From a virus: a DNA stretch of 64,000 bases. Shown piece by piece: positions 49,919 through 64,000 of the stretch (its first letter is position 1; each line of letters begins with the position of its first letter). A program made the position numbers and the translations under genes. Under the pieces are notes generated by a model. That model was not told the DNA's origin. It saw only the letters and a program-made list of their open reading frames with translations, and ran no database searches. The stretch is taken from the UHGV virus genome UHGV-0218015; one strand, written 5' to 3'.

Positions 49919-49950
49919 CCCTACTCCCGATAAGGAGTAGGGTAGTTTTT
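49919..49950. terminator. bidirectional terminator (+ block end / minus lipoprotein gene end)
   Basis: ccctactcc-cgataa-ggagtaggg with T-run downstream. Confidence 0.6.
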
Positions 49951-50431: not shown

Positions 50432-50572
50432 ACTCTTCACCTTTTATAAAAAAGTTAAAGTTAATTAATTTTACAAGCAACCCTTCTGCCGCCTGTCATA
50501 ACTATTAACACCGCTTCTATAATCCGAACAATACTATGCAAACCACCCATACTACTTACGAGGTAAAAAACA

Positions 50573-51170: not shown

Positions 51171-51701
51171 ATGGCAGCTACTAACCAGATGATGTTAGTT
51201 GCGCTTTATAATGCTGCTAACACAGAGCTACCGCATCAGGTCACTGATAAAGAGGTAACTTTTGGTCAACCTGTCGCTCTTGAAAAGGGCGATAAAAATA
51301 CCAAAGTTACCATGACCGCACGTACAGAGTCTGAAAATTTTAAAGGCGCAATCGAACTGCATTACGATCGTCTGGAACCTGGCGTTATCGGACGCATTGA
51401 GGTAACGGACGATTTGGCTCTCTGGACTGGAGAAAACGAACTACGCGACCGATTACAGTTCTACATCAATAAAGTAAAACCTGACGACTCTATCGCGCCT
51501 GGTGACGTTGAGTACACCACCGAAGACCAGAAAGACGAACACGATAGCGTCACTCTGCGTACGGTAACTTGTACCGTTACTGAAAAGAACCTCCGTTATA
51601 AACCGGGTGTAATGGCAACTTTCGTAATTACGCCGAAAGTTGTTGATAATCGTATTGACCTGGCCACCACCGACGGTGAACTTGACGGCTTTACTGCTTA
51701 A
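51171..51701 (+). CDS. hypothetical protein, four-gene family member
   Basis: Paralog of 50573 (ENFKGA.ELHYDRL, GELDGFTA); bidirectional terminator follows. Confidence 0.5.
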   Translation: MAATNQMMLVALYNAANTELPHQVTDKEVTFGQPVALEKGDKNTKVTMTARTESENFKGAIELHYDRLEPGVIGRIEVTDDLALWTGENELRDRLQFYINKVKPDDSIAPGDVEYTTEDQKDEHDSVTLRTVTCTVTEKNLRYKPGVMATFVITPKVVDNRIDLATTDGELDGFTA

Positions 51702-51739
51702 TCGCTAAGTCAACTACTACAACAAAAAATAATAAGTTT

Positions 51740-51780
51740 ACCTACCTCCTTTACGGAGGTAGGTACTTTTTTATTTTATC
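51740..51780. terminator. bidirectional terminator between convergent blocks
   Basis: 11-bp stem tacctacctcc / ggaggtaggta, A-run upstream, T-run downstream. Confidence 0.75.
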
Positions 51781-52445
51781 CCCATTTCCAAAGCGTACGC
51801 TCGGATGGTATCATAATCACGCCGCTCGGCTAAAAGCCGAAGCTCTTTTTTCTGCTCGGTTTTCTGCCCATGCAATTTCTGATCACGTTTCACAATCGCT
51901 GCCATCAGTTCTTTGCATTGTTCCAACGTGAACGGTTCTATTCGTGCATTCGACGTATCCAACCAATATTCCGGGGCGGTTTCAGACTGAATATACTGAC
52001 TTAACATCTGTCGCGATGCGTCGTCTGTTTGGAAATAACACCCATTTAACTTAATGGGTGCATAACGCTGTTCCTCATAAAGACGTTCCATCTCTATCAT
52101 GATTTTCTGAACATCTTGATAGATATAACGTGCAGTTGATCGAACGTTGTTTCGTATTTCTTCTAAATCAATCTCAAGAACATCAGCGATAAATTCTTTC
52201 GCTTTCTGTAGAGTGAAATTAGCCTCAATCTCCGACATATCGTAACTACGCATCTGTTCGATTGCGGCCTTATCTTCCAACCCATCGATTAATTTGTAGT
52301 GTAGAAGCGCACAAAAACCCGCACGACCACGATCCTCGTTGCCAATTCGTTCCATGTAATTACCGTGGCGATCGATTGGAAGCCCTCGTGAGAAATAACG
52401 TTGACGTATTTCCTCTTTCGTTAAGCCTTCGTCAATAACAGACAT
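51771..52445 (-). CDS. hypothetical protein
   Basis: Last gene of the minus-strand block. Confidence 0.45.
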   Translation of the reverse strand: MSVIDEGLTKEEIRQRYFSRGLPIDRHGNYMERIGNEDRGRAGFCALLHYKLIDGLEDKAAIEQMRSYDMSEIEANFTLQKAKEFIADVLEIDLEEIRNNVRSTARYIYQDVQKIMIEMERLYEEQRYAPIKLNGCYFQTDDASRQMLSQYIQSETAPEYWLDTSNARIEPFTLEQCKELMAAIVKRDQKLHGQKTEQKKELRLLAERRDYDTIRAYALEMGIK

Positions 52446-52993
52446 TCATCTTCTCCTTTAACTAAACCTAGCTCAATTAACAATTCAAAATCGATTTGGC
52501 GAAATTTGTTATCAAAACCAGAATCCCAATCGATGTGTAATCCTTGTCGTTCTTCATCGGTAAGTTCAGGATAAATTAAATCATGGAACGCTTCACGTTC
52601 CTCGTAAAATCCATCGATAGTAGAATCTGGATTCCGCATTGCGTAAATCGTGATGCCCGGAAAGGATAATCCTAATGCTGTTATAGATTCGACGCTTGGT
52701 TCTTGCAAGGCCCTGCGTAATAGCACGATTTTATGTCGTGGAAAATCTAGTACACGTTGTTCAAACCCAGGATTCCGTTTCTCAATTTCTGTAACTGAAA
52801 GATCGGTGAGTTCTGTGCAATACATTGGGATAACTACAGTTACTCCGTGGCGAATTAATAATCGTTTAACATCGTCAGTGAAGTCTTCACCATTAATTTG
52901 CACATAACAACCAAACAATTTTGTAGTTTCTAAAAATTTTTCCAGAAAACGGAATTTACGCTTCGTAATATTGTGGATCAGAATTGGCTTCAT
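52421..52993 (-). CDS. hypothetical protein
   Basis: ORF overlapping both neighbours. Confidence 0.45.
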   Translation of the reverse strand: MKPILIHNITKRKFRFLEKFLETTKLFGCYVQINGEDFTDDVKRLLIRHGVTVVIPMYCTELTDLSVTEIEKRNPGFEQRVLDFPRHKIVLLRRALQEPSVESITALGLSFPGITIYAMRNPDSTIDGFYEEREAFHDLIYPELTDEERQGLHIDWDSGFDNKFRQIDFELLIELGLVKGEDECLLLTKA

Positions 52994-54278
52994 CTTTGGT
53001 TTCTCTCAATTGTTTTTCTTTCTGGGTACGTTCACGTACGCAACGAGGGCAATAACACATGCTATTGTCATGAAAATCTTTCACTGACGTCGTGCCCATT
53101 TTCTGTTTCCAATATTCCGCAACCATCAACTTTGCAGTTGTCCAGCCGCATTGACGGCGTTCAGCGTGATAAGCTTTGCGATCTTCTAGCGTCCCTTCTC
53201 CATTCTCGTAAGATGCAGCCGCACAACTACCACAAGCGTGCTTCATTGGACAACCTAAACAGGTTTCAGGATAGTTGGTGTATTGCGTCTGAATCTCTTC
53301 CAGCAATTTCCCGTCATCTAAGCTAACGAATTCCCGGCCAACTAATTCAAATACGGCAGAACGTGATGTTACGGTTGACATGAAACGGTTACAACCGAAG
53401 ATCTTACGATCAAATCCTAAGCAGGTCATGTGTGTTAACGTACCGCAGAACGGGCGTAAACGTTCTGGATTCAAACGTACAGTATCGTTATACAATAACT
53501 GATCACGCCAGTTTGGTTCCCAGATAGTATCAAAATCTAACCCGTCTGGAATGATGTGCGACAAAGTGTTACGTGGGTTGGTGTGTAAGCCCTTCTCAAC
53601 CCAATAATCAACCACGTCCATCATCTGCAATGCGATTGAAGTAGCCATGCTCCGTGGCATAATGTCTTCGAAGGTTACGTTGCCAGAAATAGTTCCGCCG
53701 CCAGTAATATCAATTAATGATTTCATTCCAGCAGCATAGAACGGTAACGTTTCCAACGTAAAGGTCGCTTTTACACCAAGTTCTGCAATACCGACTTCTT
53801 TTAAGTAGTTATAGCCCCGCACAGCGGCCTCGTAAGATCCTTCACGAGTTGTTGTAAAAATCCGGTACTTATCGTGCGATTCGGGCAATCCATCAATAGA
53901 CACGCCGATAGAAAGCCTGTCTTTCCAACGTTCAATAATTTCTCTATTCAAAGGTCTATCTAACAACGTTCCGTTAGTAGAGATGCTAAACATAAACGGC
54001 CGATTATGTTTTTCGCATAACTCTTCTGCGGTTTCAAATGCCGCCTTTAATAGTTTAGGCTGCATAAACGGCTCACCACCGATGATATCGATAACGACCT
54101 CGATGTTTGTCAGATCTTTATCTCGTTCAAAACAAGCGTGTAGAAAATCAACAATATCCGCCGCTTTGTTATTACGGGGATACTTACGTTCGTAACAATA
54201 CTCACAGTCCAAGTTACACGATAAATTTGTAACAATTTGATAAGTCAGTTGTTTTGGATAACTATTTTCTTGACTCAT
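52956..54278 (-). CDS. radical SAM enzyme with SPASM-type C-terminal domain (anSME-like peptide maturase candidate)
   Basis: N-terminal CNLDCEYCYE (CxxxCxxC), GGEP; C-terminal Cys clusters CLGCPMKHACGSC and CYCPRC typical of SPASM/twitch domains. Confidence 0.75.
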   Translation of the reverse strand: MSQENSYPKQLTYQIVTNLSCNLDCEYCYERKYPRNNKAADIVDFLHACFERDKDLTNIEVVIDIIGGEPFMQPKLLKAAFETAEELCEKHNRPFMFSISTNGTLLDRPLNREIIERWKDRLSIGVSIDGLPESHDKYRIFTTTREGSYEAAVRGYNYLKEVGIAELGVKATFTLETLPFYAAGMKSLIDITGGGTISGNVTFEDIMPRSMATSIALQMMDVVDYWVEKGLHTNPRNTLSHIIPDGLDFDTIWEPNWRDQLLYNDTVRLNPERLRPFCGTLTHMTCLGFDRKIFGCNRFMSTVTSRSAVFELVGREFVSLDDGKLLEEIQTQYTNYPETCLGCPMKHACGSCAAASYENGEGTLEDRKAYHAERRQCGWTTAKLMVAEYWKQKMGTTSVKDFHDNSMCYCPRCVRERTQKEKQLRETKDEANSDPQYYEA

Positions 54279-55200
54279 TTTCCGCCCCTCTATTACGCTC
54301 TGCCATCACTACACGACGAATGTACTCGTAAGCTTCTACACCTATTGAGGAGGCTAGTTGGTTACACCCTGCTTTTGTAGTTATTGGTACATTTTTAAGT
54401 TGGTTTTCTTCCCCGTCCGCGTCTATCCTGAGACTTTCGCTACAGACATTACAAGCATGATCGAAGAATCTGTTTACAATAAAACCGCAGTCTCTAGAAT
54501 TTAGAACGTTTAATCTTTCTATATTCTCCTGAATTCTAAAATACCCGTAAATAAAGTTCATAACGTGATCGGGAGATAACGGTTTTGGCATGTTTTTATC
54601 TAGTAATAAGGACATGGAACGAAAACCGTAATGATAGATAGCAGTATGTAATTGAATGATATCTTCATGCCATCTTTTGTTGGATAAATTCTCCCTCGTA
54701 ACAACAGCCCAAGTGTTAACATTATTCAAGCTGTAAATTACTTCTAACGCTTCATGACAATTATCATCAATAAAGCGCTTAAAAGGCCGTTCGGAAAGAT
54801 TAAACCCATCGATGCTAACATATATAGCATCGAATTGTTTTAACAACGGTAGATGCGATTTACGCATTTTTAAACCGTTCGTGAACATCTGGTGTTTGAG
54901 TTCAGGACGGATCGTTTTTAATTCGTCGACAAACGCCTCAATCTTTCGAGTTGCCAGTAGCGGTTCACCGCCAGTCCACTGAATTTCAGTAATGGTTGGG
55001 TTAGACGCCAACGCTTTCAAAATTCGTTCACGTTGAAACTCTCGCGGAGAATCTTCACGATGCATGTAATAGGCTCCGCCGCAGAAGCTACAGTCCAGAT
55101 TACATTTGGATGTAGCAACTACGGACAATACGGTGGGTTTATTGTATAAACGATTCGATAACCTTGGCTCTACGTCGGTTGTCATTGCAGGTGAGTCCAT
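54262..55200 (-). CDS. radical SAM enzyme (paralog B)
   Basis: TSKCNLDCSFCGG and GGEPLL; paralog of 57235..58149 with identical DNA blocks. Confidence 0.7.
   Translation of the reverse strand: MDSPAMTTDVEPRLSNRLYNKPTVLSVVATSKCNLDCSFCGGAYYMHREDSPREFQRERILKALASNPTITEIQWTGGEPLLATRKIEAFVDELKTIRPELKHQMFTNGLKMRKSHLPLLKQFDAIYVSIDGFNLSERPFKRFIDDNCHEALEVIYSLNNVNTWAVVTRENLSNKRWHEDIIQLHTAIYHYGFRSMSLLLDKNMPKPLSPDHVMNFIYGYFRIQENIERLNVLNSRDCGFIVNRFFDHACNVCSESLRIDADGEENQLKNVPITTKAGCNQLASSIGVEAYEYIRRVVMAERNRGAENESRK
54514..54597. repeat. 84-bp block identical to 57478..57561
   Basis: Identical string inside radical SAM paralogs B and A; two more shared blocks of ~38 and ~54 bp near 54838/57813 and 55081/58025. 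Confidence 0.7.
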
Positions 55201-55207
55201 CTATTTT

Positions 55208-56095
55208 TTAAATATAGCCAATGGATAACAAAGGATCGTCGTAAGCGTTAACTCCAGGTTTTAATACAAACGGTGAATTGTAAGCCTCAATAATACGATT
55301 AAGGTCTTTATAACGCACGTTTAAACGTTCTAGATCCGCTAACGTTACGTTACGTTCCAATACCGCCGACACTGCCGCTTTTTCTTCATCAGTTAACGTG
55401 ACTTTCGTCATTAAGAAACTAACAAGTTTCGCTAAATCTGCTTCCGATGACGGATGTTCACCAATACGTGTTTGAATTAAATGCTGCATCCATGGTTTAC
55501 GAATACGTTTTGTGATTTCATGTTCATCTGTAAGGGCAACCCATACTGAACGTTCACGATCCCACATAAATTTGTAACTGTACGCCATCAGATCTGCTAA
55601 ACAGTTGATGCCAAGTTCCTCGTAACCTTCTATTTCAATATACGGTTCAGTATCAACATAGTTTTTTGTTTCTACAGGAACCAGGGCATAAAAGTACGGG
55701 AATGAACCAAGATAGTCTGGAGACCACCAACGTCGTGCTACAGGCTTCGCATTCAACTCTTTAAATGGCGTAAAGAACAATTCCAAATCTACAGAATTAT
55801 TCAGAATACCGTCACTAAAGAAATATTTACCGTCAACCAATTTACCGCGTAAATCTGAATCACCGGTAAACACCACTACGCTTTCTGCTGTCAGATCGCG
55901 TATTTTAAAAGTGTTTTCTACTGAATAGTTATTGCGATCGGTAAAAAAACGACCACGCACTTTGGGCCATTCGCCAGGTAACTGGGTTAACAAACGAACT
56001 TTATCTTCCAAATGAGCGCGTATTGAATCGGGGGAAGAAATATGAAGTGGGTGGTTGAAAATTGTTTTATAGGCTAAATGCAAATCGTTTTTCAT
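55208..56095 (-). CDS. hypothetical protein (295 aa)
   Basis: ORF between peptide genes and radical SAM genes. Confidence 0.45.
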   Translation of the reverse strand: MKNDLHLAYKTIFNHPLHISSPDSIRAHLEDKVRLLTQLPGEWPKVRGRFFTDRNNYSVENTFKIRDLTAESVVVFTGDSDLRGKLVDGKYFFSDGILNNSVDLELFFTPFKELNAKPVARRWWSPDYLGSFPYFYALVPVETKNYVDTEPYIEIEGYEELGINCLADLMAYSYKFMWDRERSVWVALTDEHEITKRIRKPWMQHLIQTRIGEHPSSEADLAKLVSFLMTKVTLTDEEKAAVSAVLERNVTLADLERLNVRYKDLNRIIEAYNSPFVLKPGVNAYDDPLLSIGYI

Positions 56096-56107
56096 TGATT
56101 ACTCCAA

Positions 56108-56626
56108 TTATTTTACGGTCAATCTGACGTTCAAGGTATAGAACCCGCCACGCCATTGCCTGCCGGTAACTTCAAATTCTGCAGTAAAGCCGTTTGATTT
56201 ACTCGGTTGCTGCTTAATCGCCATGCTTCCGCCGGAATTACTTAATACTTCTAATGAGATAGAAGCAGAAGATGCATTACCGATAGAGTCTATCTTAAAA
56301 CTAGCCGCGTCTGTAAAATTAACAGTGATACCATTACCCATTGCAACTTGAGGGTAGGCGTAGGACTTTCCAGACAGTAACGATTTAAAGACCCTTATCG
56401 GTTTCTCTCTACCGGTTGACGTTACGCATTGAATAAAGACAGCCCCAGTAGAGAAATTGATACGAACAGTATCTTTAGCGTGTAGCTTAGACTCAACATA
56501 AACAACGGCTTTGTTGTCGTAGGTTGGTCTTGAAGGGGTTGGCGTAGAACCACCGCTAGAGGGCTTACTTACCCCCCCCCGCCCCCTTACTACAGCTACC
56601 GCTGCACGACCAACTACATCCGCCAT
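56108..56626 (-). CDS. beta-rich domain protein, possibly expressed as a fusion to peptide P3
   Basis: Annotated ATG lies inside the P3 coding region; body is +1 relative to P3 across a G9 tract; Pro/Ser/Thr/Gly linker then beta-rich sequence. Confidence 0.4.
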   Translation of the reverse strand: MADVVGRAAVAVVRGRGGVSKPSSGGSTPTPSRPTYDNKAVVYVESKLHAKDTVRINFSTGAVFIQCVTSTGREKPIRVFKSLLSGKSYAYPQVAMGNGITVNFTDAASFKIDSIGNASSASISLEVLSNSGGSMAIKQQPSKSNGFTAEFEVTGRQWRGGFYTLNVRLTVK

Positions 56627-56774
56627 TACAATTATAATGACTTAAAGGTAATCCTGCGAGATTGTTGGTTGAGGAAACCGTTCCTTGGTTTGCAATATAG
56701 TTGTTTGCATTAGCGGTGGTGATATATCCCTCCGCCGTTACTAATCTGTCGCGTATGTTTTTAAGACTTATCAT
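56565..56774 (-). CDS. Cys-rich precursor-like peptide P3 (69 aa)
   Basis: Leader ISLKNIRDRL and core NCNGGCSWSCSGSCS similar to P1/P2; ends in the G9 tract. Confidence 0.55.
   Translation of the reverse strand: MISLKNIRDRLVTAEGYITTANANNYIANQGTVSSTNNLAGLPLSHYNCNGGCSWSCSGSCSKGAGGGK
56572..56580 (-). repeat. G9 homopolymer on the coding strand at the P3 / beta-domain junction
   Basis: Minus-strand reading aag ggg gcg ggg ggg ggt aag taa; a G5 run lies just 5' of it. Confidence 0.7.
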
Positions 56775-56777
56775 TTC

Positions 56778-57176
56778 TTATCTTCCAGTACACGATTGCT
56801 GACATCCGCCTCGACATGAACCTGAACATGTTCCGGTGCAACTACTTGAACAACCGCCCGAGCAATTACCTGTGCACCCTCCTGAGCAGGTACTGCTACA
56901 ACCTGTGCAACCTGTACTACATCCTGAAACACAGTTCGCTGAACAGGAAGAACCGCAGCCGCCGGAGGCGTTGCCGGTACAGCCGCCCGAACAACTTGAG
57001 CACGTCCAGCTACAGCTACCTCCACAGTCATAGTGATTTCTCGGCTGTCCTCCAAACAGATCGCTATTATTAGTGGCTTTACCACGAATATAGTTCTGCA
57101 CCGCACCTGTATTTTTTAATGCAGTAGAGTCTATGTTATCTAGCCGGGCCTTTAAAGAAGATAAACCAATCGCCAT
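56778..57176 (-). CDS. Cys-rich precursor-like peptide P2 (132 aa)
   Basis: Leader LSSLKARLDNIDST; core DCGGSCSWTCS followed by ~20 Cys spaced every 3-4 residues among G/S/T. Confidence 0.6.
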   Translation of the reverse strand: MAIGLSSLKARLDNIDSTALKNTGAVQNYIRGKATNNSDLFGGQPRNHYDCGGSCSWTCSSCSGGCTGNASGGCGSSCSANCVSGCSTGCTGCSSTCSGGCTGNCSGGCSSSCTGTCSGSCRGGCQQSCTGR

Positions 57177-57234
57177 TTTAATACCTACTGGTTTAGTGCC
57201 CCCTAGGACACATTATAATTCACTTTCTGTAAAA

Positions 57235-58149
57235 TTATCGTAGTTTTTCTGAGACTCTATTCTTAGCCCCTACCACACGACGTATATAGTCGTAAGCATC
57301 TAATCCAACCTTTCTGGCCAAGTCACTACAGCCGTGTTGCGTTACGATTTCAACGTTCTTTACTTGGTTCTGGGCACCGTCAGACTCAATGCGAAAACAA
57401 CGACTACATGTGTTACAGGGTTCATCAAATAACGCATTTAGCGTAAACGCACATTCACTTCGATTGGACGAATTCAGTCTTTCTATATTCTCCTGAATTC
57501 TAAAATACCCGTAAATAAAGTTCATAACGTGATCGGGAGATAACGGTTTTGGCATGTTTTTGTCCAAAACCAGCGACATCTCACAAAAACCATAATGGTA
57601 AATGTGGTTATGTAACGCAATTATATCTTCGTACCAACGTTTATCCCCAATACGCTCGCGTGTCAAAACCGCCCAAGTACGAATATTTTTCAATTCGTAA
57701 ATTGTCTCCAAAACCTCGTATTGTTTTTCTTCGATAATCCGCATGAACGGACGCTCTGATTCTTTGAATCCATCCATGCTAAAAAAGATACTATCAAAAC
57801 CCTTTAACAACGGTAGATGCGATTTACGCATTTTTAAACCATTGGTATACAGGTAATGTTCGCAACGAGGATACTTCTCCCTTATCTCTTCTATAAGGGT
57901 ATCAATTTTACGCGTGGCAAGTAATGGTTCGCCCCCTGACCATTGGATATTTGTGATAGTCGGGTTATTTTCCAGCGCCTCGATAATACTTTCCTTTTGT
58001 ACTTCTGCGGTTGTATCCTCTCTATGCATGTAATAGGCTCCGCCGCAGAAGCTACAGTCCAGATTACATTTGGATGTTGTAATCACGTTTAACGTTCTCG
58101 GATTACTGTAAAGCTTATCGGATACCGTCGGTCTAGTAAGTTCTTCCAT
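57235..58149 (-). CDS. radical SAM enzyme (paralog A)
   Basis: TSKCNLDCSFCGG and GGEPLL; C-terminal CNTCSRC. Confidence 0.7.
   Translation of the reverse strand: MEELTRPTVSDKLYSNPRTLNVITTSKCNLDCSFCGGAYYMHREDTTAEVQKESIIEALENNPTITNIQWSGGEPLLATRKIDTLIEEIREKYPRCEHYLYTNGLKMRKSHLPLLKGFDSIFFSMDGFKESERPFMRIIEEKQYEVLETIYELKNIRTWAVLTRERIGDKRWYEDIIALHNHIYHYGFCEMSLVLDKNMPKPLSPDHVMNFIYGYFRIQENIERLNSSNRSECAFTLNALFDEPCNTCSRCFRIESDGAQNQVKNVEIVTQHGCSDLARKVGLDAYDYIRRVVGAKNRVSEKLR
57478..57561. repeat. 84-bp block identical to 54514..54597
   Basis: See partner copy. Confidence 0.7.
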
Positions 58150-58168
58150 TCGAATTGATCCTTATTTT

Positions 58169-58564
58169 TTATGGGTTAGAACAACCACCTGCACAAGAAC
58201 CACTACACCCCGAGGAACAACGTCCAGCACATCCCCCACTACAAGTCCCACTACATCCTGAACAACCACCCGAACACGTTCCGCTACAACCACTGCATTG
58301 ATTACCACACGCAGAGGAACAGCTTCCTACGCACACCGATGTACATGTACCTGAACAACTCGTACAACCATGCGTACAACCGTTTGAGCATGTCCAGCTA
58401 CAGCTACCTCCACAATCTAATCGACCGGGTGTCCAACCTGAAAATGAATCAGCAGCGTTATGTGCTTTCGACGCAACTTGCGGATCAACACGTGGGCCAG
58501 TTGCCATTTGGTTCTCTACGTTGGTGATTCGGTCACGCACATTTTTAACACTGATCGCCATCAC
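58169..58564 (-). CDS. Cys-rich precursor-like peptide P1 (131 aa)
   Basis: Leader ISVKNVRDRITNVEN; core DCGGSCSWTCS plus ~20 Cys in CSG-type repeats. Confidence 0.6.
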   Translation of the reverse strand: MMAISVKNVRDRITNVENQMATGPRVDPQVASKAHNAADSFSGWTPGRLDCGGSCSWTCSNGCTHGCTSCSGTCTSVCVGSCSSACGNQCSGCSGTCSGGCSGCSGTCSGGCAGRCSSGCSGSCAGGCSNP

Positions 58565-58628: not shown

Positions 58629-59828
58629 TTATTTCGTACCTGCTTCTGCCTGAACGTCATCACGGGACGTCAGGTTAGCGTTAACGTGTACTGAAGCCTG
58701 AACCACACCACCGTATTTCTTGTGGAGATAACCTGTGTGTGGGTTATCTGCCGCAATATGGTTTTGTAGGTTCTGATTCGCCTGACTGATTGCGTTCGTG
58801 TTATTCGCAACCTGTTGTTTAAGCGCATCCAAGTTTTGTTGCAGATTATCAATTTTCTGATCGGTCTCATTACCCCGCTGTTCTAACGCAGCAATGCGCT
58901 GAATCGCTTGGTTGAGTTTGGTGTTCAGATCGTTGATATTTTTCTGTAACTGTAACACTAACGAGTTTAGGTTCGCCAGCGCCAGTGCCATTTTCTGATA
59001 GTTTTGTGCAACGACGTTAAGTTGGTCGTTCCACGCTTCCAGAGATTTGACAACAGCATCAATACGTTTTCCTAACGCTTCGTCCGCTTTCTTCAATGCA
59101 TTGATATCGGCAATCGTTGCATCAATGGCTGTCTGAACACTGCGAATTAAAGCGCGGATCTCCGTTTCCGTTAACCCGTTAACCTGATGAATATCCAGAT
59201 GGTGGACATTACCAGTAGAGTTAATGTGCGCGTTCAGCGCGTCCAGGAAATCGTTTTTCAGGCTATCGAGAATCGCTTTGATGTTCTCAAGCTGTACAGC
59301 ATCACCCGCAGTTATCGCATCTTTAATGCCAGCGAGCACTGTAATGATATATTCGAAGCCGTAAATATCACCGACGTCTTTATACGTTGGTGCTGAAGGA
59401 AACGTGTCCGGCACATTTCGCAAGTCTTTAAAGCCAACAGTTCGATTATCGAGTTTCAACTCGGCAATCGCTTGCTCAATCGCGGTCACATTTGCAGACT
59501 GAGGACCACCAACTACTTGCGCCGATACCGTGATATCGGTCGGAATCGCGGTGTTCGTTACAACAACCGCCATTACCACTTCCCGGTTCTTCGTCAATTT
59601 CTCATAAGCCGGGTGTGCAAAAATCAGTTCATAGTCCGTTCCACGCTCATATGTCGCTCCAGGTCGATTGGCAACCCGCAAGCGGAACGTATCGGCATAA
59701 AACGGACCATCAGGGAAAGCAAACGCACGGTTAACTTTGCCTGTACCTAACGTAATCTGACGCTCCACGGCGTTAGAGGTTAGGGTTCCCGTTAAATCTA
59801 AAGGGTATTGGTATACAATGGAGGCCAT
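58629..59828 (-). CDS. coiled-coil fibrous protein (tail fibre/whisker-like)
   Basis: ATG at 59828 after AAGGAGAG (track start 59954 lies inside upstream gene); long heptad-like Q/N/L-rich central region. Confidence 0.5.
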   Translation of the reverse strand: MASIVYQYPLDLTGTLTSNAVERQITLGTGKVNRAFAFPDGPFYADTFRLRVANRPGATYERGTDYELIFAHPAYEKLTKNREVVMAVVVTNTAIPTDITVSAQVVGGPQSANVTAIEQAIAELKLDNRTVGFKDLRNVPDTFPSAPTYKDVGDIYGFEYIITVLAGIKDAITAGDAVQLENIKAILDSLKNDFLDALNAHINSTGNVHHLDIHQVNGLTETEIRALIRSVQTAIDATIADINALKKADEALGKRIDAVVKSLEAWNDQLNVVAQNYQKMALALANLNSLVLQLQKNINDLNTKLNQAIQRIAALEQRGNETDQKIDNLQQNLDALKQQVANNTNAISQANQNLQNHIAADNPHTGYLHKKYGGVVQASVHVNANLTSRDDVQAEAGTK

Positions 59829-59868
59829 GGCCACTCTCCTTAATCCGAGACGTCCTTGTCTCGTGGCG

Positions 59869-62800
59869 TTAAGATGTAAACATAAGATTGAACTGGAGTT
59901 TATCGATATCGCGAGTTTGTGCTGGGTTAACCGCATCGTACGTGGTTGCCACATAGACCGTTAACGTGCCGTCAGAATACGCGGTTTTCACCGGTGGTGT
60001 AGTCCCTGTCTGTCCATCAGTTACAATGACGACAGGTTGAGCCGGGAGTTGACGAAACTGACTCTTAACCGCTTTATAGACCAAACCAGATTGTGCCGCT
60101 TGCTCTGTGGCGGTGTACACGATAAACGGTGTGTCGATATCTGTCTGTTTAATGACAGTGTTCGTCTCAACGTCAATCAGCTGAACAGCACCAAATTTGG
60201 TCCGGTAACTATCGTATTCATTTTTTGGAATGACAAACGTAGCATGAAGGCGGACTTCGGCGGCTGGCTTAAATCCCGCGTGTTCTTTTTCCAGGTAACT
60301 GTTAGCAGTTAGCGTTACTGTCTGTTCAGTCATCGTACCGCCAGACTGATTTAGCCCGTAACGAACTTGAGTTATACCTGTCGGGGCCGCAAGCCTGATT
60401 TTCAGTCTACGATTAGCAGTACCAGGATCGCCAGGTACTTTAACACGCAGACTCAATGCCAGATATGCATACTCGCCAGTAGTCGGTTTCGTATACGCGC
60501 CCAACCACTTCATGTTCGCGGTTGCTGCTTGTTTGTTCTCAGAAGCAGTAGCCGCTGCAACGTTCGCAGCAACCGCTTTCTGCCAGAACTGGTCAGCGCA
60601 GTTCTCATACGCCACCCTGCTGATACTTTTATAACCTGAATAGGTTTCCTGTACCGGCAACCTGGAACGTGTTGTAATCCCGGACAACGTATTCCATTTC
60701 TGACCATCGACATACCCAGCACCCTTGCTCGCAGATGCTGTAACGACTTTAACGGGTTTATTAACCAGCGTTAATAGTGGGCCAGTTTTCCTGTCGAATG
60801 CCTGCGCCACATCGTGTTGATCAACAATCGATGCATGATTTTCCAGCTCTTTTACGCGACCTAACCGTTTTACTTTATCGATACTGATATCCGTAATACG
60901 GTTCGAATCAGTGGTTACAGTCCCAACAAACAGTCTCGACGAGGTATCAGCTAACTGCTCTAAACCGATGCGGTATTGGGCAGTAGAACCGACCACTTCA
61001 GCATAAACGTAGAACGTCTGGTTAGCATGATTAGTCGGGAATTCATCGCTTAAATCAACGGACCATCTTGGAACGGTATATCTTTTATTTCCAAAACTTA
61101 ACTCGGTTTCCTCCGTCAGATAGAAATTCCAACCGCTCTGTGTTTGTACGCCGCCAATAATAATCTTATCGATAACAGTATATTTTTTGTTAAACAAATC
61201 AGAGATTCTATACTGTTCGCCACCGAGATACAACTCGTTTAAATCTTCCGAGTTACAAGTCAATAGCGCGATGCCCGAGAGATCGGGTATATAGACTTCA
61301 GATGTATTATTCAGCTTATACGTATAGCCCCACGCCCGATGAATTTCGCCGGTAAACCATTCGCCTTTTTTAGTCAAGTTTATCCCAAAAGCAAAAGAAA
61401 TCTCTGATCCTACAAGATTCCCACCAACCAGGTTATGTATTGAGAATCTGAACTTTTGTCCGTCTTGCGAATAAAGGAAAACTTGACCGGAGCGTTGTTT
61501 AAGTTCACCATTAAAAGCTGTGGGTGAGAGATTAATGGCGTTACTGGCCACTTTTTCCCTGAACGTCATCATTCTCGCTTCCGAACTAACGAACCTTATG
61601 ACCCCGTTGGTTATAGTCGGTTTTACCTGAAAGAAGTAAAAAGCAAACTTATTTACCCCGTCAGTGTCTTTATAGATAAGACTCACTATCGCGATACAAA
61701 GCGGACCACCAGACATCGTTTGACCAAGCACCCAAAAGGACAAACTGTAGTTGTTCTTTTTGGTCTTAGCTACGCTAATCCGCTCATAGGCGTTGCCGTT
61801 AGATGCCCCGGAGAACTGGCTGGACTGAACAATATTAGTCAGCTTCGCCCATTCTGCCGCATCGATAGACAACCGATCACTACCCACCGTAGTGGTACCG
61901 TAAACAACTGTACACGGTTTACTTTCGGCACCGATAAAATAAGCCCCTTCTAGTAGGCCGTTCGGTATTTCTGGCGTAACAACCAGCGGTATATTTGTCA
62001 ATATGCCGTATTCGTTCGCTGTTTTTTCAACACGGCGGGATGTTGGTCCAAAACCACCGTATCCAGGATAACCATAGGTCGTATTTTTATCATATTCGGC
62101 TTCAATGAAATAAGCCGATTTTTGATGTTTAAGCCATACTTTGTTTGTTCCTGGGAAGAACAATGGGAAGGTCATAGACGGTTTCCACACCGAACCCACC
62201 ACAGGGTTTATCCGATTTTCAAACGTAGATTGCCCCTCATACCCCACACTCAACTTAACATAGTCCAGATAACTAACTCCTTCTGGGAGTTTCTGGTAAT
62301 GGAGAGATGGTGCGAGTTGTTTTTCTGTCGAACAGCAGCAAGAATAAACCATATCACCGACACAGATTCTATTGTCGGCCATATAGCCAGAACTTCGAGT
62401 AGCCCATTTCCATTTCAGCTCTATTTTTGTTCCGTCTTTTAAGTAACAACCTGTAGTATCGATTTTGATTGGGAAGACGTTAGTTGTCTCTAACCCAACC
62501 TCCCCGGTTAATAGGTCAAGACGATAAGCACCATTCCATGGCCCGAATGTGGTACCTTTCGTTGAAGAAAAACCAAGACAAACACCAGACACGCCGACGG
62601 TTAACAAGTGACCGTCCTTAACAACGGGCGTTATCCATCTTGACGACCCTCTAGTTAATTGTAAGTTCACTGTCCACAACGCTTTGCCTTCCGCAGTGAA
62701 GTAGGCAAGACGCTTCGTATTCGGATTATCTACATCGAACGCGCCAGGTTCAACCAAATCGGCACACTTACCGATTTTTCGTGTAGACCTTAAATCAACC

Positions 62801-64000
62801 TGTTCAAACCGATCGGTTTTATTAAGCCGCAATAAGCCAACACGGAACATGGGTTGTGGGGTATCCTTAATGTAGTCCACCAGAGTATTGTTTTTCAGAT
62901 CGGCCATTAGCATCGTACGCAAAACATAGACGCCGTTATCGGCTATGACCACACGATCCATGAACATATTCGGCACAAATTCCCATGTTGTTTCTGAAAC
63001 AAATTCTGAGAAAGTTACCAACCTGACATCGGTATGTTTGGTGTAATCCATTGAACCGTTCAGTTTAACTAAATAATAATTATTGTCGCTGCCCTTCGCT
63101 ATAAATGCTTCGGTACCAGTAACGGTAATTTCTTTTAGTTCCACCCCCGGATAATTCGTCTCTAACCCTTTCGGCTTATAACGGAAAGTTGTTTTGTAAA
63201 TTTCACCGAGACTTTTGTCGTTTTTTAACCCAGCAACAGCGTAATAAATACCCTCAGTTCCCGGAAGGGCGGATTTAGAGCTAATTAAAGCATAAAGCTT
63301 ACCTTGTTGTACCCCTATAACCATCTGGAGCGCATCCATGTTTTTACCATAACCTTCGTAATTACCCATCGACAAGATCGGCAATATCGAATTGTTGGTA
63401 TATTTGCTCCCGGCCGTTGTCCATGAGGGCAAGAGGGTATTCAGTTTATCAGAGACCTTCTTAATCTCTTTTGCGAACAGCCACCCTTGGCGTGATGTGA
63501 CGGCTTTATCATTCGTGGTATCAATCGCATCCCACAGCTGTAAGATACCGTCCACTGTTGCGCTACCAATCGGGACATTATCCAAATCAGCGGTAGTGTG
63601 CGTGTGTACCTTCAAACTTTTATTTTTCAGCACGTTCGCTAATGCTTTTGTTACCGGTTTAGCGATGGGTGTGGTGTTATTCATCTTATCGATACCGAAA
63701 TCGGCCTTCGTTAAGGTTAACACCATGTTGTCGCCTGTCTTAACAAACCCTTTACCGTTAACCGTGTAGTCGTCGTCAACGTACAAGTCCAACCGGTTTT
63801 TTAACTCGGTCACAGCCTTTTGGGAAATAGCAGTGCCTAGCGCTACAGAGGTTGCGATATTCGTAATCGAAAACACCCCATAAACCGACTCGGTTGCTGT
63901 GGGAATATTCGCGTTCAACGTTAGTGGGTTAGACTGCTTCGCTGTACCGTACGGTTTTACGGTATCTGACGATTTGAAATAGGCATTCGCTTCAAGTAAC
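59869..64000 (-). CDS. very large structural-like protein, 5'-partial
   Basis: Minus-strand ORF; frame stays open from the track TTG at 63918 to the window edge, so the N-terminus is probably outside the window. Confidence 0.55.
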   Translation of the reverse strand, partial: LLEANAYFKSSDTVKPYGTAKQSNPLTLNANIPTATESVYGVFSITNIATSVALGTAISQKAVTELKNRLDLYVDDDYTVNGKGFVKTGDNMVLTLTKADFGIDKMNNTTPIAKPVTKALANVLKNKSLKVHTHTTADLDNVPIGSATVDGILQLWDAIDTTNDKAVTSRQGWLFAKEIKKVSDKLNTLLPSWTTAGSKYTNNSILPILSMGNYEGYGKNMDALQMVIGVQQGKLYALISSKSALPGTEGIYYAVAGLKNDKSLGEIYKTTFRYKPKGLETNYPGVELKEITVTGTEAFIAKGSDNNYYLVKLNGSMDYTKHTDVRLVTFSEFVSETTWEFVPNMFMDRVVIADNGVYVLRTMLMADLKNNTLVDYIKDTPQPMFRVGLLRLNKTDRFEQVDLRSTRKIGKCADLVEPGAFDVDNPNTKRLAYFTAEGKALWTVNLQLTRGSSRWITPVVKDGHLLTVGVSGVCLGFSSTKGTTFGPWNGAYRLDLLTGEVGLETTNVFPIKIDTTGCYLKDGTKIELKWKWATRSSGYMADNRICVGDMVYSCCCSTEKQLAPSLHYQKLPEGVSYLDYVKLSVGYEGQSTFENRINPVVGSVWKPSMTFPLFFPGTNKVWLKHQKSAYFIEAEYDKNTTYGYPGYGGFGPTSRRVEKTANEYGILTNIPLVVTPEIPNGLLEGAYFIGAESKPCTVVYGTTTVGSDRLSIDAAEWAKLTNIVQSSQFSGASNGNAYERISVAKTKKNNYSLSFWVLGQTMSGGPLCIAIVSLIYKDTDGVNKFAFYFFQVKPTITNGVIRFVSSEARMMTFREKVASNAINLSPTAFNGELKQRSGQVFLYSQDGQKFRFSIHNLVGGNLVGSEISFAFGINLTKKGEWFTGEIHRAWGYTYKLNNTSEVYIPDLSGIALLTCNSEDLNELYLGGEQYRISDLFNKKYTVIDKIIIGGVQTQSGWNFYLTEETELSFGNKRYTVPRWSVDLSDEFPTNHANQTFYVYAEVVGSTAQYRIGLEQLADTSSRLFVGTVTTDSNRITDISIDKVKRLGRVKELENHASIVDQHDVAQAFDRKTGPLLTLVNKPVKVVTASASKGAGYVDGQKWNTLSGITTRSRLPVQETYSGYKSISRVAYENCADQFWQKAVAANVAAATASENKQAATANMKWLGAYTKPTTGEYAYLALSLRVKVPGDPGTANRRLKIRLAAPTGITQVRYGLNQSGGTMTEQTVTLTANSYLEKEHAGFKPAAEVRLHATFVIPKNEYDSYRTKFGAVQLIDVETNTVIKQTDIDTPFIVYTATEQAAQSGLVYKAVKSQFRQLPAQPVVIVTDGQTGTTPPVKTAYSDGTLTVYVATTYDAVNPAQTRDIDKLQFNLMFTS

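What the first reader, a model, noticed from the sequence alone, without database searches (positions are those of the whole stretch)
52956..58564. Radical-SAM / Cys-rich peptide cluster embedded in the tail module: candidate phage RiPP-like system
Three small genes (P1 58169-58564, P2 56778-57176, P3 56565-56774) encode peptides with a shared N-terminal leader (ISVKNVRDRIT / LSSLKARLDNI / ISLKNIRDRLV) and a shared core entry (D/N-C-G/N-G-S/G-C-S-W-T/S-C-S). P1 and P2 then carry about 20 Cys each (counted by eye) spaced every 3-4 residues among Gly/Ser/Thr. They are interleaved with three radical-SAM enzymes, all with CNLDC(S/E)(F/Y)C: two ~300-aa paralogs and a 440-aa enzyme with SPASM-like C-terminal Cys clusters, the architecture of thioether-forming RiPP maturases and anSME. 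Two unknown proteins (295 and 172 aa) sit inside the cluster. The whole locus lies between tail-fibre-like genes on the same strand, so the modified peptides could be virion components rather than secreted products. I do not recall a described phage tail locus of this kind.
Basis: partly seen in the sequence, partly recalled or inferred. Interest (0 to 1): 0.9.

Follow-up and report, generated by a model that had tools for sequence, protein, structure and literature searches.

The report
Radical-SAM module for cysteine-rich tail-fibre proteins
A giant Salmonella/Erwinia-type phage carries three radical-SAM enzymes next to three small proteins made of Cys-X-X-X repeats, and in unrelated phages the same repeats form the end of true tail fibres, so the enzymes most likely modify a virion fibre part chemically, which has not been described for a phage.

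Summary
P1 has 21 Cys and P2 has 20, spaced 3-4 residues apart, and these are the only such tracts in any frame of the 64-kb window. All three enzymes pass the Pfam Radical_SAM cut-off. The 440-aa enzyme has seven invariant C-terminal Cys and a near-threshold SPASM match. Its best family match is the NCBIfam 'CXXX-repeat target' maturase, TIGR04115, below cut-off.

The window is a relative of the SPN3US-like jumbo phages, and about 60 phage records carry P1 homologues. In SPN3US and JN03, P1-P3 are not annotated and a wrong-frame ORF is annotated over P2. The Cys frame is under purifying selection (pN/pS 0.02-0.36); the other frames give values of 0.8 or more, above 1 in 26 of 28 comparisons.

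In prophages and phage contigs from at least four other lineages, the same enzyme pair and a homologous accessory protein follow a tail fibre. In four of them the fibre's C-terminus is the Cys-rich tract, with the same junction motif as P1-P3.

I read the cluster as a fibre-maturation module that probably makes thioether cross-links. The chemistry and virion incorporation are untested. I found no paper describing it.

The parts
58169..58561 (-). P1: a 130-aa protein with an N-terminal helix (MAISVKNVRDRITNVE), a fibre-type junction (SKAHNAADSFSGWTPGRLD) and a CXXX-repeat region of 21 Cys
   Evidence: TIGR04114 scores 20.1 bits (cut-off 20) and phrog_6085 gives 3e-40. pN/pS is 0.16-0.32 in this frame and 0.9 or more in the other two. 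Homologues occur in 60 phage records.
57235..58149 (-). rSAM-B2: a 304-aa radical-SAM enzyme, the second copy of the small enzyme, with CX3CX2C and conserved C-terminal Cys at C245 and C274
   Evidence: Pfam PF04055 scores 52.6 bits. Alignment A3. The copy is present in L017 but absent from JN03, SPN3US, pEa_SNUABM_6 and L089.
56778..57176 (-). P2: a 132-aa paralogue of P1 (45% identity) with 20 Cys
   Evidence: TIGR04114 scores 22.3 bits. pN/pS is 0.02-0.36 in this frame.
56565..56774 (-). P3: a 69-aa short paralogue with the same N-terminus and junction but only the first four Cys (CNGGCSWSCSGSC)
   Evidence: phrog_6085 gives 8e-25. It is 94% identical to its L017 orthologue, where third-codon-position identity is only 0.47.
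56572..56580 (-). G9 homopolymer two codons before the P3 stop. Losing one G, or a +1 slip, would fuse P3 to the 172-aa ORF.
   Evidence: An independent phage contig (L089) has a G10 tract with the same out-of-frame arrangement.
56108..56626 (-). 172-aa ORF in the +1 frame relative to P3, with a Gly/Ser/Pro/Thr linker and a domain of about 150 aa. Its only in-frame start before about residue 95 is an ATG buried inside P3. It is a lineage-specific insertion.
   Evidence: It is absent from L017, JN03 and pEa_SNUABM_6. Only three homologous clusters exist in 5.8 billion proteins. No Pfam, NCBIfam or PHROG hit.
55208..56095 (-). 295-aa accessory protein (phrog_8030), a conserved member of the module that always follows the Cys-rich protein
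54262..55200 (-). rSAM-B1: a 312-aa radical-SAM enzyme, the ancestral copy of the small enzyme
   Evidence: Pfam PF04055 scores 50.0 bits. Orthologues are SPN3US gp164 and JN03 'radical SAM superfamily protein 2'. Counterparts occur in L005, L007, L021, L171 and L172.
52956..54278 (-). rSAM-A: a 440-aa radical-SAM/SPASM-type enzyme, the presumed cross-linking maturase
   Evidence: PF04055 scores 56.7 bits. TIGR04115 scores 118.9 bits over its full length, PapB 116 bits and TIGR04085 25.6 bits. Invariant Cys are C21, C25 and C28 plus C278, C296, C340, C343, C349, C352 and C377. The closest solved structure is CteB, 5wgg.
52421..52993 (-). 190-aa unknown (phrog_7988). It overlaps the end of rSAM-A by 38 nt and is conserved in the jumbo-phage relatives only.
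51771..52445 (-). 224-aa DUF4376 protein, the last gene of the - strand unit. The same domain recurs next to the module in L172.
   Evidence: PF14301 scores 37.9 bits. Weak match to phrog_1141 'tail fiber protein'. L172.
51739..51765 (.). Bidirectional terminator-like hairpin (11-bp stem) that closes the - strand fibre/maturation unit
58629..59954 (-). Virion structural protein with a coiled-coil region, the homologue of SPN3US gp167, immediately upstream of P1. From the orthologues, the start is probably MAMASIVYQ, giving about 401 aa.
   Evidence: phrog_2163 gives 8e-104. gp167 was detected in SPN3US virions (PMC5694885 supplement).
59869..63918 (-). Large fibre or baseplate protein of the SPN3US gp168 family. 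The window holds only its C-terminal portion (1349 aa of a family about 1700 aa long).
   Evidence: phrog_7449 gives 2e-292, matching profile positions 375-1708. PMC5694885 calls gp168 a 'baseplate/tail fiber candidate' found in virions.

Best explanation
The cluster is a tail-fibre maturation module, not a secreted-peptide pathway.

P1, P2 and P3 are small fibre-type structural proteins. Each has a short N-terminal helix, the junction sequence that precedes the Cys tract in long fibres of other phages, and a Cys-X-X-X repeat region rich in Gly, Ser and Thr.

Inferred mechanism: in the infected cell the SPASM-type enzyme rSAM-A uses its radical-SAM cluster and two auxiliary Fe-S clusters to turn the Cys thiols of the repeats into covalent cross-links. 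Cys-to-carbon thioethers, as made by its nearest characterised relatives PapB and CteB, are the most likely product. The smaller enzyme rSAM-B, duplicated here as B1 and B2, adds a second, unknown radical modification. The 295-aa accessory protein, which always follows the substrate gene, presents or chaperones the substrate. In the Campylobacter P2-like prophage it sits where a fibre-assembly chaperone gene sits in P2. The modified, covalently braced rods are then built into the tail-fibre or baseplate apparatus.

A rationale for the chemistry (inference): disulfides cannot form in the reducing cytoplasm where phage tails assemble, whereas radical-made thioethers can, and they are insensitive to redox state.

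Shown here: the gene content, the enzyme families, selection on the Cys frame, and the conserved linkage to fibres, including physical fusion. Inferred: the type of chemistry, the roles of rSAM-B and the accessory protein, and incorporation into virions.
For: 1. Enzyme identity. All three enzymes exceed the Pfam Radical_SAM cut-off. rSAM-A matches TIGR04115 'CXXX-repeat target' maturase (E 3e-34, full length), PapB (2e-33) and CteB 5wgg. It has seven invariant C-terminal Cys and a TIGR04085 score of 25.6 against a cut-off of 27.

2. Substrate linkage. 76 of 79 viral loci with a related enzyme carry a same-strand CXXX-run ORF within 3.5 kb, and none carries one elsewhere in the locus. P1 and P2 pass the TIGR04114 cut-off.

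3. Fibre linkage in unrelated phages:
- A Campylobacter P2-like prophage has a PF12571 tail fibre (E 2e-40) ending in a CXXX tract, followed by a 250-aa accessory, rSAM-A and rSAM-B, all lying between the baseplate genes and the sheath gene.
- A Deferribacter GpJ-type prophage and contig L171 have fibres of 302 and 258 aa ending 'KATNADQLGGQAGSYYRCSDCSWTCS...' and 'AANASKLAGQTSGYYRCSGCSWTC...'. Compare P2 'KATNNSDLFGGQPRNHYDCGGSCSWTCS'.
- L019 has a 568-aa fibre-like protein with the same junction.
- L038 has the Cys tract inside a 937-aa protein with flanking domains, and L082 has it after an F5/8-type-C-like domain.
- L033 and L055 place the Cys-rich gene beside baseplate-wedge or tail-fibre homologues.

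4. The accessory protein is homologous across lineages.

5. P1-P3 are translated and strongly constrained. pN/pS is 0.02-0.36 in the Cys frame. P1-P3 are 88-94% identical to their L017 orthologues while third-position identity is about 0.5.

6. The cluster lies in one - strand unit with virion fibre genes and ends at a terminator. In SPN3US the flanking gp167-171 are virion proteins, whereas the enzymes gp163 and gp164 and the accessory gp165 were not detected in virions, as expected for maturases.
Against: No experiment shows any modification, and none shows P1-P3 in virions.

The SPN3US virion proteome does not list them. However, they were not in the searched protein set, because the annotated gp166 is in the wrong frame, and their Cys regions have almost no tryptic sites.

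rSAM-A scores far below the equivalog cut-offs of TIGR04115 (118.9 vs 350) and PapB (116 vs 340), so the chemistry cannot be transferred with confidence. The PapB acceptor residue, Asp, is nearly absent from P1-P3.

In the jumbo phages the Cys proteins are free-standing and small, so a non-structural role is not excluded.

One related locus (L020/L021) lies next to a helicase and has no long Cys tract.

The AlphaFold2 model of P2 is uninformative (pLDDT 45.6). The accessory protein has no recognisable fold relative.
Confidence: 0.6

Rival explanations
1. This is a classical RiPP pathway. P1-P3 are precursors whose roughly 50-aa leaders guide the maturases. The Cys-rich cores are cross-linked, cut off and released as bioactive peptides, for example against competing bacteria or phages or to act on the host. 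Their place among tail genes is incidental.
For: The enzymes are of the RiPP-maturase kind. P1-P3 share a conserved N-terminal segment and a variable repeat core. Several members are small: 69-132 aa here, 116 aa in L172 and about 75 aa in L170.
Against: Pfam, NCBIfam and PHROGs searches gave no protease, transporter or RRE match for any cluster ORF, and rSAM-A has no N-terminal RRE extension because its CX3CX2C motif starts at residue 21. The same Cys tract and junction form the C-terminal domain of long fibres in four other lineages, and an internal segment of a 937-aa multidomain protein. The module keeps its place in tail modules of myovirus-, siphovirus- and T7-tail-type phages. A core of 80 residues with 20 Cys is far larger than known ranthipeptides or sactipeptides (my own knowledge).
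Confidence: 0.12
2. The Cys-rich tracts are metal- or Fe-S-binding rods. This would resemble metallothionein, or the iron-binding His motifs in the tip of the T4 long tail fibre. They are not covalently cross-linked. The radical-SAM enzymes then do something else to the fibre, or only chaperone or deliver metal.
For: The composition is one Cys in four with small residues, which is compatible with thiolate-metal clusters. Metal ions along fibre axes are known in T4 gp37 (my own knowledge).
Against: The tight, lineage-independent co-occurrence is with a SPASM maturase family whose characterised relatives act on Cys in peptide substrates. All three radical-SAM cluster Cys and seven auxiliary Cys are invariant, which argues for a catalytically active enzyme. 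The strict 3-4 spacing matches the curated 'radical SAM target' repeat TIGR04114.
Confidence: 0.12
3. rSAM-A acts like an anaerobic sulfatase-maturing enzyme. It oxidises Cys or Ser in the repeats to formylglycine or another non-cross-linking product, creating reactive aldehydes on the fibre.
For: anSME models match rSAM-A (TIGR03942 55 bits) and the relatives in L007 and L005 (79 and 68 bits). The repeats are rich in both Cys and Ser.
Against: The anSME matches are weaker than those to the CXXX-repeat and PapB maturases, and none reaches a cut-off. The anSME recognition motif C/S-x-P/A-x-R (my own knowledge) is absent from P1-P3 by inspection of the sequences.
Confidence: 0.06
4. The Cys-rich ORFs are not real genes but low-complexity reading frames, and the enzymes serve an unrelated function.
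For: Annotators of SPN3US and JN03 skipped them and called another frame instead.
Against: pN/pS is 0.02-0.36 in the Cys frame, and 0.8 or more in the alternative frames (above 1 in 26 of 28 comparisons). The number and register of the Cys are conserved across about 20 orthologues. The tblastn match of the leader reaches E 1e-25 in 60 phage records. PHROGs already holds the family as phrog_6085.
Confidence: 0.02

Closest known systems
NCBIfam TIGR04115 / TIGR04114: radical-SAM peptide maturase of the 'CXXX-repeat target' family and its Cys-rich repeat targets. The pair is defined bioinformatically. I know of no experimental characterisation, and the paper searches found none.
   Same: A SPASM-type radical-SAM enzyme sits next to proteins with tandem Cys-X-X-X repeats. 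rSAM-A's best match is this model (118.9 bits, full length). P1 and P2 pass the repeat model's cut-off. Some viral relatives are true members: L038 scores 430 bits and L055 391 bits against a cut-off of 350.
   Different: rSAM-A is far below the equivalog cut-off and belongs to a separate clade that also includes the Campylobacter and Deferribacter prophage enzymes. That clade has a second, smaller radical-SAM enzyme and a dedicated 250-295-aa accessory protein. Its targets are tail fibres or fibre-type small proteins. The family description does not mention phage fibres.
PapB/PapA (freyrasin) and CteB/CteA (SCIFF, thermocellin): thioether-forming ranthipeptide maturases
   Same: The enzyme architecture is the same: a radical-SAM core plus a SPASM domain with seven Cys. 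PapB is the second-best model (116 bits) and CteB the only solved structure found (E 1.6e-12). The substrates have repeated Cys.
   Different: Scores are well below the cut-offs. The PapB acceptor residue Asp is almost absent here. The known products are peptides of about 20-50 residues cut from a leader, whereas the targets here are 80-110-residue tracts or domains of 258-937-aa proteins. No RRE domain is detectable.
His-Xaa-Ser system (HxsA repeat peptide, HxsB SPASM radical-SAM, HxsC second radical-SAM, HxsD accessory)
   Same: The four-part layout is the same: a short-period repeat substrate, a SPASM enzyme, a second smaller radical-SAM enzyme and an accessory protein. HxsB and HxsC are among the hits of rSAM-A (77.7 bits) and of rSAM-B1 and rSAM-B2 (41.2 and 42.3 bits).
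   Different: All scores are far below the cut-offs. The repeat is Cys-based, not His-Xaa-Ser. The accessory protein matches no NCBIfam model.
Phage tail-fibre assembly chaperones (for example P2 gpG, T4 gp38/gp57A) and intramolecular chaperone domains
   Same: Non-virion helper genes sit directly after the fibre gene and are needed to mature its distal end. In the Campylobacter P2-like prophage the accessory and radical-SAM genes lie between the fibre gene and the sheath gene, which is where gpG lies in P2 (gene order from my own knowledge).
   Different: Known chaperones assist folding without covalent chemistry. Here the helpers include radical enzymes. There is no sequence or fold similarity to known chaperones.

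Membership tests
Radical SAM superfamily (PF04055) | CX3CX2C cluster motif and an HMM score above the Pfam gathering threshold | tested here: met
   All three enzymes carry CNLDC(E/S)(Y/F)C. Scores are 56.7, 50.0 and 52.6 bits against 29.5.
SPASM subgroup (TIGR04085 / PF13186) | A C-terminal domain with seven Cys that bind two auxiliary [4Fe-4S] clusters, and an HMM hit | tested here: inconclusive
   Seven invariant Cys (C278, C296, C340, C343, C349, C352, C377) in 24 homologues. TIGR04085 scores 25.6 bits against a cut-off of 27, covering profile positions 1-86 of 93. PF13186 gives no hit. The small rSAM-B enzymes have only 2-3 conserved C-terminal Cys and no SPASM or twitch hit.
TIGR04115 rSAM_Cxxx_rpt (equivalog domain) | HMM score of at least 350 bits | tested here: not met
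   118.9 bits, E 3.4e-34, full-length alignment. Viral relatives L038 (430.1) and L055 (391.3) do meet it.
TIGR04115 rSAM_Cxxx_rpt (equivalog domain) | Encoded next to a protein with tandem CXXX repeats | tested here: met
   P1, P2 and P3 lie in the same cluster. 76 of 79 related viral loci show the same adjacency.
TIGR04114 Cys-rich repeat radical-SAM target | HMM score of at least 20 bits for the CXXX repeat | tested here: met
   P2 scores 22.3 bits and P1 20.1 bits. P3 scores 13.7 bits and does not pass.
PapB-type ranthipeptide system | Maturase HMM score of at least 340 bits, and substrate Cys-X3-Asp motifs (Cys-to-Asp beta-thioether) | tested here: not met
   116 bits. Asp does not appear among the eight most common residues of the P1 and P2 Cys regions, where C, G, S and T make up about 85%.
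RiPP pathway in the strict sense | A leader recognised by an RRE or maturase and removed by a protease, with the mature peptide released or exported | tested here: not met
   No cluster ORF matches a protease, ABC transporter or RRE/PqqD-like model. rSAM-A has no N-terminal extension. The accessory protein's model has no PqqD-like match. Actual leader cleavage cannot be tested with these tools.
RiPP pathway in the strict sense | The substrate is a short, dedicated precursor peptide | tested here: inconclusive
   This holds for P1-P3 (69-132 aa). In related loci, however, the same tract is the C-terminal or internal part of 258-937-aa fibre or adhesin-like proteins.
Phage tail fibre / virion structural protein | Present in purified virions | not testable with these tools
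   The published SPN3US virion MS lists gp167-171 but could not have found P1-P3, because they were not annotated.
Phage tail fibre / virion structural protein | Sequence or domain relationship to known fibres | tested here: inconclusive
   P1-P3 have no Pfam fibre hit. They share the pre-Cys junction and the CSW core with the C-termini of fibres in L007, L171 and L019. The Campylobacter homologue of the module acts on a PF12571 fibre.
HxsB/HxsC paired radical-SAM system | HMM scores above the cut-offs (370 and 268 bits) and a His-Xaa-Ser repeat substrate | tested here: not met
   77.7 bits for rSAM-A, and 41.2 and 42.3 bits for rSAM-B1 and rSAM-B2. The substrate repeat is Cys-based.

The most novel reading that the evidence does not exclude
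Tailed phages of several unrelated lineages (SPN3US-like jumbo myoviruses, P2-like, lambda-like, T7-tail-like and gut-virome phages) build part of their tail fibres from a Cys-X-X-X repeat rod. A dedicated pair of radical-SAM enzymes staples this rod covalently in the cytoplasm. It would be the first virion structural protein matured by RiPP-type radical chemistry, and a new kind of protein fibre made of tandem thioether rings. In this phage and one relative, a poly-G tract additionally lets the short member P3 acquire a C-terminal domain by slippage.
Probability: 0.45. Interest if true: 0.9.

Novelty: new variant of a known kind. Interest (0 to 1): 0.8.

Why it matters
If the reading holds, radical-SAM 'peptide maturases' are not limited to small secreted natural products. 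They would also mature large structural proteins of viruses.

It would give a biological role to a bioinformatically defined but unexplained family pair, TIGR04114 and TIGR04115.

It would add a covalent, redox-independent cross-link to the known ways of stabilising phage fibres. It would also identify three overlooked, strongly conserved genes in the model giant phage SPN3US and about 60 sequenced relatives, some of which are used for phage therapy or biocontrol against Salmonella, E. coli and Erwinia amylovora.

There are practical consequences. Host range or particle stability may depend on the host's Fe-S and SAM supply and on oxygen. Heterologous production of such phages or their fibres would need the enzymes. 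The repeats offer a genetically encoded way to make hyper-cross-linked protein rods.

The question is directly testable with an existing genetic system, the SPN3US amber mutants, and with existing virion MS data.

Tried and rejected
1. AlphaFold2 of P2 with a 20-sequence alignment gave pLDDT 45.6. Only the two N-terminal helices reach about 60-65, so nothing can be said about the fold of the Cys rod.

3. phmmer of the Cys regions against PDB sequences found nothing even at E 10. My recalled resemblance to Cys-braced beta-solenoids such as the Tenebrio antifreeze protein therefore stays an untested idea.

4. I tested whether the P1-P3 'leader' is homologous to the N-terminal domain (about 120 aa) of the gut-virome CXXX proteins. 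hhalign gave a probability of 34%, on the Cys start only, so I dropped the idea of a universal leader.

It returned mostly general SPASM maturases at 25-37% identity and missed the known Campylobacter and Deferribacter loci. It says nothing about how common the close clade is.

6. Contigs carrying the 99%-identical enzyme (P0001) extend in the wrong direction and do not cover the poly-G junction.

7. Eight literature searches (SPN3US with radical SAM; phage, radical SAM, tail fiber and thioether; TIGR04115 and CXXX repeat; radical SAM, tail fiber and SPASM; phage RiPP, virion and cysteine-rich; Erwinia phage; ranthipeptide with prophage) found no description of this system. The library lacks most subscription journals, so this is not proof of absence.

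8. The promoter scan found fewer sigma-70-like sites than the shuffled controls and was not used.

Full report
**1. What is in the window**

| ORF | Coordinates | Length |
|---|---|---|
| P1 | 58169-58564 | 130 aa from the ATG at 58561 |
| rSAM-B2 | 57235-58149 | 304 aa |
| P2 | 56778-57176 | 132 aa |
| P3 | 56565-56774 | 69 aa |
| 172-aa ORF | 56108-56626 | 172 aa |
| 295-aa ORF | 55208-56095 | 295 aa |
| rSAM-B1 | 54262-55200 | 312 aa |
| rSAM-A | 52956-54278 | 440 aa |

P1 has 21 Cys and P2 has 20, spaced 3 or 4 residues apart. About a quarter of the Cys region is each of C, G and S. P3 stops after four Cys. Over all six frames of the 64-kb window, only P1 and P2 contain five or more consecutive C-x(2,3) units, so the feature is not a chance product of composition.

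The unit continues downstream with a 190-aa unknown that overlaps the end of rSAM-A, and then a DUF4376 protein. It ends at an 11-bp-stem bidirectional terminator at 51739-51765. Upstream on the same strand are homologues of SPN3US gp167 and gp168.

**2. Which genome this is, and how well the locus is conserved**

DNA similarity is only 72-75% to Salmonella phage JN03 (Seoulvirus, SPN3US-like) and Erwinia phage pEa_SNUABM_6 (Machinavirus). The window therefore comes from an undescribed relative of these 240-kb jumbo myoviruses. The closest record is IMG/VR contig L017, whose rSAM-A is 96% identical.

Homologues of the P1 N-terminal half are found by tblastn in 60 phage records from Salmonella, Erwinia, Escherichia and Proteus phages. 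In many of these, including SPN3US, no gene is annotated at that spot. In SPN3US and JN03, P1-P3 are not annotated, and a 111-aa 'hypothetical protein' (gp166; QNI20864) is annotated over P2 in the wrong frame.

A Nei-Gojobori count on ungapped orthologue pairs gives pN/pS of 0.02-0.36 in the Cys frame, for both the N-terminal part and the Cys region. The two alternative frames give 0.81-8.6, above 1 in 26 of 28 comparisons. Against L017, third-codon-position identity is only about 0.5, yet P3, P1 and P2 stay 94%, 89% and 88% identical at the protein level. That is more conserved than the accessory protein (69%) or rSAM-B1 (76%). The Cys-rich ORFs are therefore real, strongly constrained genes.

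**3. The enzymes**

All three pass the Pfam Radical_SAM threshold.

- **rSAM-A, family matches.** The best NCBIfam match is TIGR04115, 'radical SAM peptide maturase, CXXX-repeat target family' (118.9 bits, E 3e-34, covering the whole model). Next comes the PapB ranthipeptide maturase (116 bits). Both are far below their equivalog cut-offs of 350 and 340 bits.
- **rSAM-A, structure and SPASM.** The only solved structure found by sequence is CteB, the thioether-forming SCIFF maturase. An alignment of 24 homologues shows the CX3CX2C triad plus seven invariant C-terminal Cys. The isolated C-terminus scores 25.6 bits on the SPASM model TIGR04085 (cut-off 27), while Pfam SPASM gives nothing. I treat it as a diverged SPASM-type enzyme.
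- **rSAM-B1 and rSAM-B2.** They are 61% identical. Besides the radical-SAM triad they keep only two invariant C-terminal Cys, plus a third in most members. They match no specific family. Weak matches of the A and B enzymes to HxsB and HxsC recall the 'paired radical SAM' layout of the His-Xaa-Ser system.

**4. Evidence from other phages**

Distant homologues of rSAM-A (34-40% identity) lie in phages unrelated to SPN3US, and each time in the tail module.

- **Campylobacter pinnipediorum P2-like prophage.** The gene order is baseplate W, J and I, then a tail fibre (PF12571, E 2e-40), a 250-aa unknown, an rSAM-A homologue, an rSAM-B homologue, a DUF1353 protein, then sheath and tube. The fibre ends in '...GCNGCSGSCSGSCSSGCTACSGCSGSCSGK...'.
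- **Deferribacter abyssi GpJ-type prophage and metagenomic contig L171.** Fibre-like proteins of 302 and 258 aa carry 'HDDRYYTE' repeats and end in 100 and 45 residues of CXXX repeats. They are followed by a 250-277-aa protein, one or two rSAM-B genes, and rSAM-A.
- **Contig L019 (213 kb).** A 568-aa fibre-like protein ends the same way.
- **The junction is shared.** Compare 'KATNADQLGGQAGSYYRCSDCSWTCS' (Deferribacter), 'NAVTLGGQPPDFYTCGGSCSWSC' (L019) and 'AANASKLAGQTSGYYRCSGCSWTC' (L171) with window P2 'KATNNSDLFGGQPRNHYDCGGSCSWTCS'.
- **The accessory protein is shared.** The protein that follows the substrate is homologous to the window's 295-aa ORF: BLASTP E 2e-10 for L007, and phrog_8030 hits for L007, L171 and L172.
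- **Small stand-alone substrates also occur.** L172 has a 116-aa Cys protein, an accessory, rSAM-A, rSAM-B and a DUF4376 protein. L170 has a T7-tail-like fibre, an uncalled Cys-rich ORF, an accessory and rSAM-A.

The module is thus a Cys-repeat fibre or fibre-type protein, an accessory, rSAM-B and rSAM-A.

A wider set of 79 IMG/VR loci carries related enzymes, down to 23% identity. Some are bona fide TIGR04115 members: L038 scores 430 bits and L055 391 bits. In 76 of the 79 a same-strand CXXX-run ORF lies within 3.5 kb of the enzyme, and no locus has one anywhere else. These ORFs have a median stop-to-stop length of 259 codons and reach 940. In L038 the Cys tract is an internal segment between an N-terminal domain and C-terminal 'WKNYDGTGTGTGPF' repeats. 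In L082 it follows an F5/8-type-C-like domain. In L033 and L055 the neighbours are baseplate-wedge and tail-fibre homologues. One exception (L020/L021) sits next to a helicase and has no long Cys tract.

**5. Interpretation**

These data fit poorly with a secreted RiPP. Pfam, NCBIfam and PHROGs searches gave no protease, exporter or RRE match for any cluster ORF. The accessory protein's confident model (pLDDT 91.9) has no PqqD-like or any other informative PDB match. The 'leader' carries a junction that is internal to long fibres elsewhere.

P1-P3 look like stand-alone fibre tips or segments whose CXXX region is the enzymes' substrate.

Published SPN3US virion proteomics agrees as far as it can. 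The flanking gp160 and gp167-171 are virion proteins. The enzymes gp163 and gp164 and the accessory gp165 were not detected (PMC5694885 supplement). P1-P3 could not be scored because they were not in the database.

I propose that rSAM-A makes Cys-derived thioether cross-links along the repeats. This rests on the nearest characterised relatives (established for PapB and CteB; from my own knowledge). The acceptor is unknown, because Asp, the PapB acceptor, is nearly absent. rSAM-B and the accessory protein have no assignable chemistry. Radical-made thioethers would give covalent bracing that can be installed in the reducing cytoplasm. That rationale is inference only.

**6. Features specific to this window**

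- **Duplication of rSAM-B.** The small enzyme is duplicated, with B2 lying between P1 and P2. L017 shares this. JN03, SPN3US, pEa_SNUABM_6 and L089 do not. L171 has an independent duplication.
- **The 172-aa ORF is an insertion.** It is absent from L017 and the named phages, and only three homologous clusters exist in 5.8 billion proteins.
- **It may be expressed as a fusion to P3.** It lies in the +1 frame relative to P3. Its only in-frame start before about residue 95 is an ATG buried inside P3, with no Shine-Dalgarno sequence. A G9 run (56572-56580) sits two codons before the P3 stop. Losing one G, or a +1 slip, would join P3 to a Gly/Ser/Pro/Thr linker and a domain of about 150 aa.
- **The arrangement is conserved.** A second phage, in a Salmonella Enteritidis assembly (L089, 90% identical ORF), has the same out-of-frame arrangement with a G10 run and one extra Gly codon. 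This argues against a simple sequencing error and for slippage or phase variation. That remains unproven.

**7. Comparison with what is known, and novelty**

The enzyme-substrate pairing belongs to a kind that is catalogued (TIGR04114, TIGR04115, phrog_1802, phrog_6085). As far as eight full-text searches show, it has not been characterised and has not been linked to phage fibres.

The window's system fails the equivalog thresholds. It differs in having a second radical-SAM enzyme, a dedicated accessory protein of unmatched fold, and a fibre context. I therefore rate it a new variant of a known kind.

If the cross-linked-fibre reading is right, the biology would be new: radical-SAM maturation of a virion structural protein.

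**8. Confidence**

| Claim | Confidence |
|---|---|
| Observation | confirmed |
| P1-P3 are translated | very high |
| They are the substrates of rSAM-A | high |
| Fibre or virion role | moderate, about 0.6 |
| Thioether chemistry | about 0.4-0.5 |
| Roles of rSAM-B, the accessory protein and the 190-aa protein | unknown |

Noticed in passing
window 56565-56626 (G9 at 56572-56580); L089 4040-4070: A G9 homopolymer lies two codons before the P3 stop, and the 172-aa ORF follows in the +1 frame with no usable start of its own. A second phage (L089) has a G10 tract and the same out-of-frame layout. A one-base contraction or slip would make a P3 fusion protein of about 220 aa. This could be programmed slippage or phase variation of a fibre component.
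   Followed up: partly
L003/L004 (SPN3US, 143409-144223 in the record); L001 12169-13198 (JN03): In SPN3US and JN03, P1, P2 and P3 are not annotated. A 111-aa 'hypothetical protein' (gp166; QNI20864) is called in the wrong frame over P2. In pEa_SNUABM_6, P3 is annotated correctly, but a + strand ORF is annotated antisense to P1. Published virion proteomes could therefore not detect these proteins.
   Followed up: yes
window 57235-58149 vs 54262-55200; L171 5306-6992: The small radical-SAM enzyme is duplicated in this phage and in L017 (61% identity between the copies). It is duplicated independently in the siphovirus-like contig L171. Each copy may serve a different substrate paralogue.
   Followed up: partly
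L170 4937-5248: An uncalled Cys-rich ORF of about 75 aa ('MSRFFTRPNQQGGGCTGCSNTC...') overlaps the 3' end of a T7-tail-like fibre gene in another frame. It lies just before the accessory and rSAM-A homologues. This is another case where gene callers miss the substrate, and possibly another frame-shift junction.
   Followed up: no
window 50573-51103 and 51171-51701 (+ strand): Two tandem 176-aa paralogues (phrog_4862, with weaker matches to virion structural protein families; DUF7941 in the L087 annotation) converge on the cluster's terminator. SPN3US gp160, a similarly sized virion protein abundant in the published MS, is annotated in the equivalent region; the correspondence was not tested.
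   Followed up: partly
window 49949-50440 (- strand): A 163-aa ORF has a lipoprotein-type signal peptide (…VFSLAGC) and belongs to phrog_9559 of unknown function. It sits between structural genes. I did not investigate it.
   Followed up: no
window 52421-52993: A 190-aa protein (phrog_7988) overlaps the stop of rSAM-A by 38 nt, which suggests translational coupling. It is conserved only in the jumbo-phage version of the module. It has no family or function assigned and could be a partner of the enzymes.
   Followed up: no
L038 1976-4789; L082 4541-5923; L078 7306-10260: Gut-virome relatives carry very large CXXX proteins with up to 78 Cys. These combine the Cys tract with other domains: an F5/8-type-C-like domain, 'GTGTGTGPF' repeats, and two adjacent Cys-rich genes together with four radical-SAM genes in L078. 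The repeat appears to be used as a modular shaft in varied virion-surface proteins.
   Followed up: partly
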